From the NCBI RefSeq assembly GCF_022846255.1, contig NZ_AP025682.1: a stretch of DNA of 64,000 nucleotides; one strand, given 5' to 3'. How positions within the stretch are numbered: position 1 is the first letter of the stretch; every line of letters starts with the position of its first letter. Below are positions 20,077 through 23,000 of the stretch, in pieces. A program made the position numbers. This stretch comes from Escherichia coli (GTDB lineage: Bacteria; Pseudomonadota; Gammaproteobacteria; Enterobacterales; Enterobacteriaceae).

Positions 20077-23000
20077 TAATTCCAGGGATTTATCAATGAA
20101 ACAAACACAACGTCACAACGGTATTATCGAACTGGTTAAACAGCAGGGTTATGTCAGCACCGAGGAGCTGGTAGAGCATTTCTCCGTTAGCCCGCAGACT
20201 ATTCGCCGCGATCTCAACGAGCTGGCAGAGCAAAACCTGATCCTGCGCCATCATGGCGGTGCGGCGCTGCCTTCCAGTTCGGTTAATACGCCGTGGCACG
20301 ATCGCAAGGCCACCCAGACCGAAGAAAAAGAGCGCATCGCACGCAAAGTGGGGGAGCAAATTCCCAATGGCTCGACGCTGTTTATCGATATCGGCACCAC
20401 GCCGGAAGCGGTGGCGCACGCGCTGCTTAATCACAGCAATTTACGCATTGTGACCAACAATCTCAACGTCGCTAACACGCTGATGGTAAAAGAGGATTTC
20501 CGTATCATTCTTGCCGGTGGCGAATTACGCAGCCGCGATGGCGGGATCATTGGCGAAGCAACGCTCGATTTTATCTCCCAGTTCCGCCTCGATTTCGGCA
20601 TTCTGGGGATAAGCGGCATCGATAGCGACGGCTCGCTACTGGAGTTCGATTACCACGAAGTTCGCACCAAACGCGCCATCATTGAGAACTCGCGCCACGT
20701 TATGCTGGTTGTCGACCACTCAAAATTTGGCCGTAACGCAATGGTCAATATGGGTAGCATCAGCATGGTCGATGCTGTCTACACCGACACGATGCCGCCT
20801 GCGAGCGTGATGCAGGTGCTGAAGGACCATCATATTCAACTGGAGCTGTGCTGATCCTGCATTGCTTCCCATGTCAGACCAAAACGCGCCAGGTATTTGC
20901 GTAGCCGATCCGCGTCATTGACGCTGGCTTTACCCTGGCGCGAAACATCAAAAAGCTGTCGTCCGGCAGCAGAAAGCGACTTTGCCTGGCGGCAGATAGC
21001 GATAACGTGTTCCAGTTGCATACGGTCGAAGAGATCGATGTTTTCTGCCTCTGCGCCCAGCAACGCCGTAAGCGTGGAGGGGCGACTCTCCTGCCAGTTA
21101 TAGCGCAGACGGTTGATCTCATCTTCCACCGTATCCAGTGTGATGCGTCCGCTAGTGGCAAAGGTGGCCATCCGCGTGACGCTGGCAGAAAGTTCGCGAA
21201 AGTTACCGCGCCATGTTGCCTGGGGAGAGGTCGCAAAGGCCAGCCAGGCACGCCGCGCTTCGGTGTTAAAACGCACGCTGTCGCCAGTGAGTGAGGCGTG
21301 GCGCTCCACTTCATAATCCAGGTTCGGTTCAATATCTTCCTGGCGTTGGCGTAATCCTGGCAAGGTGAAGGTCCAGAGATTTATTCGCGCGTACAGGTCT
21401 TCACGAAATTTGCCTTCGGCAACCAACTGGCGCAAATCGCGCACCGTTCCGGCGATAAGCTGAAAATCACTGCTCACCTGGCGATCGCTGCCAAACGGGT
21501 AAAAGGTTTTCTCTTCAATGGCTTTCAGCAGCATTGCCTGTTCGTCTGCGCCCAGTTCGCCAATCTCATCAAGAAACAACATTCCGCCGTTGGCGCTGCG
21601 TAATAATCCTTCACGCGATTCCCGCGCCCCGGTAAACGCGCCTTTCACATGACCAAACAGCGTCGACATGGCGGTATCGCCGCGCAGGGTGGCGCAGTTC
21701 ACTTCCACAAACGCGCCGCTAAACTGATGCCGCGCCTGTTTTAGCTCGAAGATACGTCGTGCCAGAAATGACTTACCTGCACCGGTCGGGCCGTTAAGCA
21801 GGATCGGTGCGCGGGATTTTATCGCCACTTTTTCAATCTGCTCAATCATGCGGTTGAAGTGGGAGTTACGCGTGGCAATACCGGACTTAAGAAAATCAAG
21901 CGTTTGCTGGCGTTCCTCGGCAAAGCGGCTGGCGATGGCGTTATAACGGCTTAAATCGAGATCGATAATCGTCACTGCGCCAGGGCTATCGGGCCGCTCT
22001 TTTTTGCGCGGTGGTGAAGATTGTATCAACCGGGTGGGCAGGTAACGCGCTTCTGCCAGCAGAAACCAGCAAATCTGCGCGACGTGGGTGCCGGTGGTGA
22101 TGTGAATTAAATACTCTTCTTTATCAGGTTGGAACGCGTAACCACGGGCGAAATCATGCAGGCAGGCGTAAACCTCTTCGAAATCCCAAGGGTTATGCAG
22201 TTCTATCTCAACGCCCACCACTTCTGTTTCTGGCGAAACGCTGGCGATATCGCGTTTAAGCGTTTCGAATAGCGAGCGCGAGCGGGCGTCGTGCAATAAT
22301 TCCAGCCGATCGATAACTAACGATTCTTGCTGGCATAGACAGAGTGTCGGACGCCATTTTGACCAGCGCTGACTGCCGCGCCCGGCATAATCCAGCACCG
22401 TTCCGACAAAGCCAAAAGCCACTGTTTTACGCATCTTAGATATCCTTATAAAAGACGAGATTTCATTATCGGTAAATCGGCTTTGCGGGAAATCTCCGTT
22501 TACGGACGTAAAAATATAATATTTTTAAAAACAATGAATTAAAAAATTAAGATGCTTATTTGATTTTCTGGCACGACGGTTGCAATTATCAGGACAGCAA
22601 ACAACGAAAAGAGAAAAACAAAATGAATTACGAATTACTGACCACTGAAAATGCTCCGGTAAAAATGTGGACCAAAGGCGTGCCGGTAGAAGCCGATGCG
22701 CGTCAGCAACTTATTAATACCGCGAAGATGCCATTTATTTTCAAACATATTGCGGTAATGCCTGATGTACACCTGGGTAAAGGTTCCACCATTGGTAGCG
22801 TGATCCCGACCAAAGGGGCGATTATTCCGGCGGCGGTGGGCGTGGATATTGGCTGTGGAATGAACGCACTGCGTACCGCGTTAACGGCGGCGGACCTGCC
22901 TGAAAACCTGGCAGAGCTGCGTCAGGCGATTGAAACGGCCGTACCGCACGGACGTACTACCGGGCGTTGTAAACGTGATAAAGGCGCATGGGAAAATCCG

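What the first reader, a model, noticed from the sequence alone, without database searches (positions are those of the whole stretch)
20836..20854. Convergent 3' overlap of glpR and rtcR coding sequences
The glpR stop (20852-20854) lies inside the rtcR 3' end (rtcR stop at 20836-20838), so the two convergent genes overlap by 19 bp with no intergenic terminator. This implies potential transcriptional interference or antisense interaction between the glp repressor and rtc activator transcripts.
Basis: seen in the sequence. Interest (0 to 1): 0.2.

Follow-up and report, generated by a model that had tools for sequence, protein, structure and literature searches.

The report
Known 19-bp glpR–rtcR tail overlap
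The ends of two converging E. coli regulator genes, glpR and rtcR, do share 19 bases, but this is the standard annotated layout in nearly all E. coli, looks like a harmless side effect of tight gene packing, and has no evidence of a regulatory role.

Summary
glpR (+, 20096-20854, stop TGA at 20852-54) and rtcR (-, 20836-22434, stop TGA read from tca at 20836-38) overlap by 19 bp. K-12 MG1655 (rtcR 3558268-3559866, glpR 3559848-3560605) and RefSeq PGAP annotate the same overlap. A 79-nt junction query matches 5423 of 5426 complete E. coli genomes, and every record I inspected has the 19-bp overlap. Escherichia species and Klebsiella oxytoca also have it. Salmonella and Superficieibacter overlap by 4 bp, and Intestinirhabdus by 35 bp. 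GlpR's C-terminus (Q/H)LELC* is near-invariant, even in genomes without rtcR next door. RtcR's last residues vary between lineages and are set by the antisense of glpR. With a glpR stop of TAA or TAG, rtcR stops after 4 shared bases. With TGA, that rtcR codon becomes Gln and rtcR runs five more codons. No terminator, hairpin or Rfam RNA lies at the junction. Published K-12 data place a Rho-dependent termination region on the glpR-sense strand about 334 nt inside rtcR, so transcripts do overlap. That is true of about 75% of convergent E. coli operons, and nothing indicates regulation. The feature is ordinary, already known and of low interest.

The parts
20096..20854 (+). glpR coding sequence (252 aa DeoR-family glycerol-3-phosphate regulon repressor). 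It is intact here, whereas it is frameshifted in K-12 MG1655.
   Evidence: ORF list; Pfam HTH_DeoR 2.4e-26 and DeoRC 5.4e-55; PGAP coordinates in FEX669; K-12 pseudogene flag and 1-nt gap
20836..22434 (-). rtcR coding sequence (532 aa sigma-54 enhancer-binding activator of rtcBA, with an N-terminal RtcR/CARF domain)
   Evidence: ORF list; Pfam RtcR 1.3e-84 and Sigma54_activat 7.6e-51; annotation
20836..20854 (.). The 19-bp shared stretch. It encodes GlpR (I)QLELC* on the + strand and RtcR (D)QHSSS* on the - strand. Third codon positions face each other, which is phase 123:213.
   Evidence: Codon-by-codon read-out; phase notation from PMC2174442; the only variable sites among 9 junctions are the paired third positions
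20852..20854 (+). glpR stop codon TGA. Its middle base decides whether the rtcR codon opposite it is a stop (glpR TAA/TAG) or Gln (glpR TGA).
   Evidence: Ungapped comparison with Salmonella (TGT TAA) and S. electus (TGT TAG) against E. coli (TGC TGA)
20836..20838 (-). rtcR stop codon TGA. It is built from the third base of glpR codon Ile248 (ATT) and the first two bases of Gln249 (CAA).
20830..20832 (-). Second in-frame TGA two codons after the rtcR stop, a back-up stop in this allele. The K-12 allele has TGG here.
   Evidence: Sequence; junction strings
20855..20954 (+). First 100 nt of untranslated glpR-sense RNA after the stop. It is mildly C-rich and G-poor (31 C, 22 G), which is compatible with Rho loading. 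Inferred, not shown.
   Evidence: Composition count
21188..21188 (+). Window position equivalent to the K-12 Rho termination region on the glpR-sense strand (K-12 3559514, minus strand, antisense to rtcR). The published method uses 800-nt windows, so resolution is coarse.
   Evidence: Adams et al. 2021 eLife (PMC7815308) Supplementary file 2. Coordinates were transferred by me.

Best explanation
This is an ordinary, conserved tail-to-tail coding overlap with no function of its own. The rtcR-rtcBA cassette sits hard against the 3' end of glpR. GlpR's C-terminal codons (QLELC-stop) are under strong protein-level constraint. RtcR's last few residues lie beyond its conserved region and are free to vary, so they are whatever the antisense of glpR encodes in that frame. 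The overlap length depends on where the first in-frame stop falls. If the glpR stop is TAA or TAG, the opposing rtcR codon is itself a stop and the overlap is 4 bp (Salmonella, Superficieibacter). If it is TGA, as in Escherichia and K. oxytoca, that codon reads CAG (Gln) and rtcR runs five more codons (Q-H-S-S-S) to a TGA, giving 19 bp. A 7-nt deletion shifts the frame in Intestinirhabdus and gives 35 bp. Because third codon positions face each other, the overlap costs both genes almost nothing. With no room for a terminator, glpR-sense transcription runs into rtcR antisense and is ended by Rho a few hundred nt downstream. That last step is shown in K-12 and inferred for this strain. Where rtcR-sense transcription ends is not known; I assume Rho acts there too.
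For: The overlap and both frames are confirmed. K-12 and PGAP annotate it identically. A 79-nt junction query matches 5423 of 5426 complete E. coli genomes, and both genes lie under the match in every sampled row. The five records inspected, including the two most divergent hits and an rtc-deleted strain, all have the 19-bp overlap. Junctions elsewhere are 19 bp in 4 other Escherichia species and K. oxytoca, 35 bp in I. alba and 4 bp in S. electus and Salmonella. GlpR tails end in (Q/H)LELC in the large majority of the 120 best homologues. This includes Enterobacter ludwigii, where glpR faces malT with no rtcR, and a 79%-identical GlpR followed by glpD. In the tails listed, every RtcR of the Escherichia/Klebsiella junction type ends in invariant QHSSS although the four residues before it vary. 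Non-enteric RtcRs have 5-17 unconserved residues after the conserved Trp. No terminator-like site exceeds shuffle expectation, folding is unremarkable (z -0.76 and -1.40), there are no inverted repeats, and Rfam finds nothing. The Rho termination region antisense to rtcR has read counts of 154/29 untreated and 153/256 with bicyclomycin.
Against: Invariance of QHSSS cannot by itself separate selection on RtcR from constraint imposed by glpR. The direction of change (4 to 19 bp or 19 to 4 bp) is not resolved. The Rho data come from K-12, which is about 6% diverged from this allele around the junction. The antisense reads could in part start at an unmapped promoter rather than being glpR read-through. 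No data show where rtcR transcripts end.
Confidence: 0.86

Rival explanations
1. Excludon-like cross-regulation. glpEGR read-through RNA acts as an antisense RNA on rtcR, or rtcR read-through acts on glpR. RNA polymerase collision or RNase III cleavage of the duplex would then couple glycerol-3-phosphate regulon control to the RNA-repair response.
For: There is no terminator between the genes. Rho-limited glpR-sense transcription runs at least about 334 nt into rtcR in K-12. One RNase III-type 22-nt duplex lies inside glpR in p19 capture data. The junction architecture is conserved across Escherichia.
Against: Complementary 3' ends are the norm at convergent E. coli operons (276 of 370). The p19 duplex is barely above the 1-RPM cut-off, lies about 445 nt from the junction, and that paper reports dsRNAs from most genes. 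RtcR activity is controlled post-translationally through its CARF domain (PMC9650030 and PMC7790460). The main glpEGR promoter is not glp-regulated (PMC2593051). No paper links the two genes. Overlap length varies between genera (4, 19, 35 bp), and strains that have deleted most of rtc keep the junction.
Confidence: 0.07
2. The overlap is selected for its own sake, for example for genome compaction or to make loss of rtcR costly by tying its end to glpR.
For: The 19-bp state is fixed in essentially all E. coli and shared with K. oxytoca.
Against: Conservation is fully explained by constraint on GlpR's C-terminus, which is equally conserved where no rtcR is present. Related genera have 4-bp or 35-bp overlaps. 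A natural rtc deletion simply leaves a 399-bp rtcR remnant. Saving 19 bp is negligible.
Confidence: 0.04
3. Annotation or sequence artefact: one of the two stops is wrong and the genes do not really overlap.
For: None found. The only conceivable support is that RtcR's last 5 residues are not conserved outside enterics.
Against: Stop codons are fixed once the frame is fixed, and both frames are anchored by conserved residues within 6-11 codons of the stops. The same sequence and annotation appear in independent complete genomes: a junction match in 5423 of them, and a 19-bp overlap in every record inspected.
Confidence: 0.01

Closest known systems
The annotated rtcR (b3422) / glpR (b3423) junction of E. 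coli K-12 MG1655
   Same: Same genes, same orientation and the same 19-bp overlap (rtcR ends at 3559866, glpR begins at 3559848). The shared 19 nt are identical.
   Different: The window carries a diverged allele, about 94% identical to K-12 around the junction. Its glpR is intact, whereas MG1655 glpR is a frameshifted pseudogene. It also has an extra back-up TGA two codons after the rtcR stop.
Convergent CDS overlaps generated by stop-codon change (the stop-codon-mutation model; Lillo & Krakauer 2007, PMC2174442)
   Same: This is a short tail-to-tail overlap whose length is set by the next in-frame stop. It has the same phase (123:213) as the common 4-nt TTAA/CTAA overlaps. Its Salmonella and Superficieibacter orthologues are exactly such 4-nt overlaps.
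   Different: Phase 123:213 is the minority phase (18%) among convergent overlaps of 5 nt or more in that survey. Here the switch is a stop-to-stop change in the partner gene (TAA/TAG versus TGA) that is silent for glpR.
Overlapping 3' transcript ends of convergent operons / excludons (Conway et al. 2014, PMC4161252; excludon concept, PMC7154746)
   Same: The transcripts necessarily overlap. A Rho-limited antisense extension of about 334 nt into rtcR is close to the 286-nt average reported for convergent operons.
   Different: No mutually exclusive expression, no opposing functions and no demonstrated RNase III dependence are known for this pair. Nothing marks it out from the about 75% of convergent operons that behave the same way.
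Bidirectional intrinsic terminators between convergent genes
   Same: They occupy the same position, between two converging genes.
   Different: There is no hairpin and no U/A tract at or near the junction, so this mechanism is absent here.

Membership tests
Convergent (tail-to-tail) coding-sequence overlap | Two genuine protein-coding genes on opposite strands | tested here: met
   Pfam domains are strong for both. Orthologues occur across genera. Both are annotated in RefSeq.
Convergent (tail-to-tail) coding-sequence overlap | Each stop codon lies inside the other gene's reading frame | tested here: met
   Stops are at 20852-54 (+) and 20836-38 (-), and the shared stretch is 19 bp.
Convergent (tail-to-tail) coding-sequence overlap | The overlap is reproducible in independent genomes, so it is not a sequencing or annotation error | tested here: met
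   The junction matches in 5423 of 5426 complete E. coli genomes. All five records inspected have the 19-bp overlap, as do 5 other species.
Stop-codon-shift origin of overlaps | Orthologous junctions differ by point changes or indels that move one stop while the partner's protein is unchanged | tested here: met
   Salmonella TGT TAA and S. electus TGT TAG give 4 bp. E. coli TGC TGA gives 19 bp. I. alba has a 7-nt deletion and gives 35 bp. GlpR QLELC* is unchanged in all.
Excludon / regulatory convergent antisense pair | A transcript from one gene extends as a long antisense RNA over the neighbour | tested here: inconclusive
   Published K-12 data show a Rho termination region on the glpR-sense strand about 334 nt inside rtcR. 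The origin of those reads and their behaviour in this strain were not shown.
Excludon / regulatory convergent antisense pair | Reciprocal (mutually exclusive) expression of the two genes, dependent on the overlap | not testable with these tools
   No expression data for the pair were found in the accessible supplements, and no paper links them.
Excludon / regulatory convergent antisense pair | RNase III processing of the sense/antisense duplex | tested here: inconclusive
   There is a single 22-nt p19-captured duplex inside glpR at 1.09 and 1.47 RPM, about 445 nt from the junction. That paper reports dsRNAs from most genes.
Bidirectional intrinsic terminator | A G+C-rich hairpin flanked by an A-tract and a U-tract between the convergent genes | tested here: not met
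   No terminator-like site lies at the junction, and the regional count equals shuffle expectation. There are no inverted repeats of 7 nt or more. Fold z-scores are -0.76 and -1.40.
Known structured RNA (Rfam) | A match to any Rfam covariance model at or around the junction | tested here: not met
   0 matches at E<=1 in 19800-22700 on both strands.

The most novel reading that the evidence does not exclude
The terminator-less junction is used for regulation. glpEGR read-through, normally cut short by Rho about 300 nt into rtcR, would act as a conditional antisense brake on rtcR. When Rho activity or translation-transcription coupling falls, which are the same stresses that induce the Rtc RNA-repair system, antisense transcription across rtcR would rise and modulate RtcR supply.
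Probability: 0.04. Interest if true: 0.4.

Novelty: already known. Interest (0 to 1): 0.07.

Why it matters
It matters very little. The overlap is part of the standard E. coli annotation and behaves like dozens of other short convergent overlaps. Its modest value is as a clean worked example of how such overlaps arise. A change in glpR's stop codon that is silent for glpR decides whether RtcR ends five residues earlier or later. The invariant 'QHSSS' tail of enterobacterial RtcR is most simply read as a shadow of GlpR's conserved C-terminus rather than a functional motif. That is worth knowing for anyone interpreting RtcR conservation or engineering either gene's 3' end, because a deletion or tag at one gene's C-terminus alters the other.

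Tried and rejected
- **Intrinsic or bidirectional terminator at or near the junction.** The scan found only weak sites at shuffle frequency, none at the junction. RNA folds of both strands were unremarkable. No inverted repeats were found. Rejected.
- **Known RNA family.** The Rfam E-value scan was empty.
- **Discrete mapped 3' ends.** Adams et al. list no Term-seq 3' ends in K-12 3559300-3560499, only the Rho region. The SMRT-Cappable-seq supplements and the PMC10349824 supplements have no entries for either gene. Supplements of Dar & Sorek 2018, Conway 2014 and ExcludonFinder are not held.
- **A rut-like C>G bubble downstream of each stop.** There is only a mild C excess at 20855-20954, which is not decisive.
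- **The overlap arose from an unusually long RtcR C-terminal extension.** E. coli has 10 residues after the conserved Trp, against 5-17 elsewhere, so it is not unusual.
- **Canonical terminators after glpR in genomes that lack rtcR.** The Enterobacter spacer has a perfect 10-bp inverted repeat and locus L029 has a hairpin with a 4-T tail. Neither passed the scan's criteria, so I make no claim that a terminator was lost.
- **The window is strain FEX669.** They are identical only around the junction and about 99.2% identical overall, with indels.

Full report
**Observation.** Reading the window directly, bases 20836-20838 are 'tca', which is TGA on the minus strand. Bases 20852-20854 are 'tga'. 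The ORF list shows a plus-strand ORF ending at 20854 whose product ends ...KDHHIQLELC. It also shows a minus-strand ORF at 20836..22434 of 532 aa ending ...EAMQDQHSSS. Pfam identifies the first as a DeoR-family regulator (HTH_DeoR 2.4e-26, DeoRC 5.4e-55). It identifies the second as RtcR (RtcR/CARF domain 1.3e-84, Sigma54_activat 7.6e-51, AAA_lid_14).

**Comparison with public annotation.** The 901-bp stretch 20400-21300 matches 5425 of 5426 complete E. coli genomes. In strain FEX669, which is 100% identical over that stretch, PGAP annotates glpR and rtcR with the same 19-bp overlap. K-12 MG1655 (NC_000913.3) has rtcR at 3558268-3559866 (+) and glpR at 3559848-3560605 (-), again 19 bp. A 79-nt query centred on the junction hits 5423 of 5426 genomes. 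Both genes lie under the match in every sampled row. The two most divergent hits are still annotated with a 19-bp overlap.

**Is it more than chance?** No. Lillo & Krakauer (PMC2174442) counted 58 convergent overlaps in E. coli. In the PGAP annotation of FEX669, the closest complete genome (about 99% identical to this window), 8 convergent gene pairs fall in the corresponding 64 kb. One of them overlaps, and the others are 42-219 bp apart. Of the three antisense frames through the end of glpR, the real rtcR frame reaches a stop soonest (19 bp, against 95 and 135 bp).

**Anatomy.** Codon by codon, glpR reads ATT CAA CTG GAG CTG TGC TGA and rtcR reads GAT CAG CAC AGC TCC AGT TGA. Third codon positions face each other, which is phase 123:213 in the notation of PMC2174442. 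This is the same phase as the common 4-nt TTAA/CTAA overlaps. Among nine orthologous junctions, the only variable sites inside the 19 nt are these paired third positions, and the changes are synonymous in both genes.

**Which gene's end came first?**
- GlpR's C-terminus (Q/H)LELC* is nearly invariant among the 120 best homologues, which come from many Enterobacterales genera.
- It is also conserved where rtcR is not adjacent. In Enterobacter ludwigii, glpR faces malT across a spacer of about 90-100 bp. In a genome with a 79%-identical GlpR, glpR is followed by glpD.
- RtcR is conserved only up to ...DADRLRKYLARFGLTWE. Non-enteric RtcRs then carry 5-17 unconserved residues.
- In the tails listed, every RtcR of the Escherichia/Klebsiella junction type ends in invariant QHSSS, although the preceding four residues vary (AVQD, SVLT, TLKN, TLQH, MLKD).
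- That pattern is what one expects if the tail is dictated by the antisense of glpR's constrained codons. I infer that the RtcR tail is the passenger.

**How the length is set.**
- In Salmonella enterica, glpR and rtcR overlap by 4 bp (TTAA) and RtcR is 527 aa, ending ...TWDVLQN.
- In Superficieibacter electus the overlap is also 4 bp (CTAA).
- The Salmonella and E. coli junctions align without gaps. In the glpR sense they read TGT TAA TTC and TGC TGA TCC.
- The rtcR codon opposite the last base of the Cys codon plus the first two bases of the glpR stop is TAA when the glpR stop is TAA or TAG. It is CAG (Gln) when the glpR stop is TGA.
- rtcR then runs five more codons to the TGA at 20836-38.
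- In Intestinirhabdus alba, a 7-nt deletion puts rtcR into another antisense frame. This gives a 35-bp overlap and the tail ISTAPAEYGDR. A Salmonella enterica protein cluster has a similar tail.
- This is the stop-codon-shift route to convergent overlaps discussed in PMC2174442.
- The direction of change is unresolved.

**Origin of the adjacency.** In Enterobacter, glpR and malT converge directly. In E. coli the roughly 4-kb rtcR-rtcB-rtcA block lies exactly between them. The closest RtcR homologues outside Enterobacteriaceae (70-76% identity) are mostly betaproteobacterial. I infer, without proof, that the cassette was inserted against the glpR stop. A loss in Enterobacter is also possible.

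**Transcription.** No terminator-like site lies at the junction, and the regional count (3) equals shuffle expectation (3.2 ± 2.1). The folds of 281 nt of each strand are unremarkable, with z-scores of -0.76 and -1.40. No inverted repeats of 7 nt or more occur within 150 nt. Rfam finds nothing. Published K-12 data fill the gap.
- Adams et al. 2021 (PMC7815308, Supplementary file 2) list a Rho termination region at 3559514 on the minus strand, classed 'antisense rtcR'.
- Reads in the 800-nt windows upstream/downstream are 154/29 untreated and 153/256 after bicyclomycin. The Rho score is 8.9 and p is 2.7e-27.
- That strand is the glpR sense strand, and the position is 334 nt beyond the glpR stop, which corresponds to about window 21188.
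- So glpR-sense transcription continues into rtcR antisense and is ended by Rho. The 100 nt after the stop are mildly C-rich.
- No Term-seq 3' ends and no rtcR-sense Rho region are listed nearby.
- In p19 capture data (PMC7373196), a single 22-nt RNase III-type duplex maps inside glpR about 445 nt from the junction. It sits just above the 1-RPM cut-off.

**Does this imply regulation?** Transcript overlap is real but generic. Conway et al. (PMC4161252) found complementary 3' ends at 276 of 370 convergent operons, averaging 286 nt. RtcR activity is gated post-translationally through its CARF domain (PMC9650030; PMC7790460). The main glpEGR promoter is not under GlpR control (PMC2593051). No paper in the library connects the two genes functionally. 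Overlap length differs between genera (4, 19, 35 bp). An E. coli strain that has deleted most of the rtc locus keeps a 399-bp rtcR remnant that still overlaps glpR by 19 bp. I therefore rate an excludon-like function as possible but unlikely, at about 0.07.

**Verdict.** The feature is a known, conserved and probably neutral by-product of gene packing, so interest is low. One practical caveat follows: any edit to the last six codons of either gene changes the other.

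Noticed in passing
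window 20201-20400 (glpR): glpR is intact in this window. K-12 MG1655 glpR is flagged as a pseudogene, and the alignment shows a 1-nt gap in this interval, which is the known MG1655 frameshift.
   Followed up: partly
window 20400-25400: The 3' half of glpR through rtcA is only about 89-96% identical to K-12 per 200-nt bin. Just 908 of 5425 E. coli genomes are at least 99% identical over 20400-21300, and 4368 fall in the 90-95% band. The window therefore carries a minority, well-diverged allele of the glpR-rtc region.
   Followed up: partly
window ~7700-17130: Mapped from the FEX669 annotation, a chaperone-usher fimbrial operon (usher, two chaperones, several fimbrial subunits) plus three hypothetical genes, one frameshifted, lies between glgP and glpD. 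K-12 was not checked over this interval.
   Followed up: no
window 46166-46952 (ORFs 46524-46838 - and 46169-46462 -): An insert of about 740 bp between envZ and pckA, relative to strain FEX669, carries a two-gene toxin-antitoxin-like pair. One is a 105-aa RelE-family protein (PF06296, 3.7e-06) and the other a 98-aa HTH_3/HTH_31 protein.
   Followed up: partly
locus L032 (E. coli S13) 2937-3723; also hit H24: Some E. coli strains with the window-type allele have deleted most of the rtc locus. A 399-bp rtcR 3' remnant is fused to the 3' part of rtcA, and rtcB is gone. The glpR/rtcR junction is untouched.
   Followed up: partly
hit H25 (E. coli NCTC11023): Only the first 160 nt of the 901-nt query match. 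glpR is annotated next to a glycogen/starch phosphorylase, which suggests a larger deletion that removed the glpR 3' half and the rtc genes.
   Followed up: no
window 20438-20466 (-) and 20387-20411: A sigma-70-like hexamer pair on the rtcR-sense strand inside glpR (TTGAGA-17-TAAATT, 9 of 12 matches, at chance frequency) lies just upstream of the position equivalent to the K-12 p19-captured RNase III duplex. It could be a weak internal antisense promoter, or it could be coincidence.
   Followed up: no
window 20830-20838 (-); proteins P0121 and P0128: The window allele has tandem rtcR stops (TGA ATA TGA), while K-12 has TGA ATA TGG. Rare database proteins of 636 aa show RtcR reading about 104 codons further through glpR antisense when the stop is lost or the frame shifts.
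   Followed up: partly
loci L026/L027 3760-3850 (Enterobacter ludwigii glpR-malT spacer): The spacer contains a perfect 10-bp inverted repeat (CCCTCTCCTC/GAGGAGAGGG, 3-nt loop) and further GGAGAGGG-type repeats, with no T tract. These are repeat-element-like hairpins rather than a canonical terminator.
   Followed up: partly
locus L028 5472-6702 (Salmonella enterica): In Salmonella, the gene divergent from rtcR encodes a Ro60/TROVE-vWA protein (rsr) instead of rtcB directly. The operon controlled by RtcR therefore differs from that of E. coli, even though the glpR junction is homologous.
   Followed up: no
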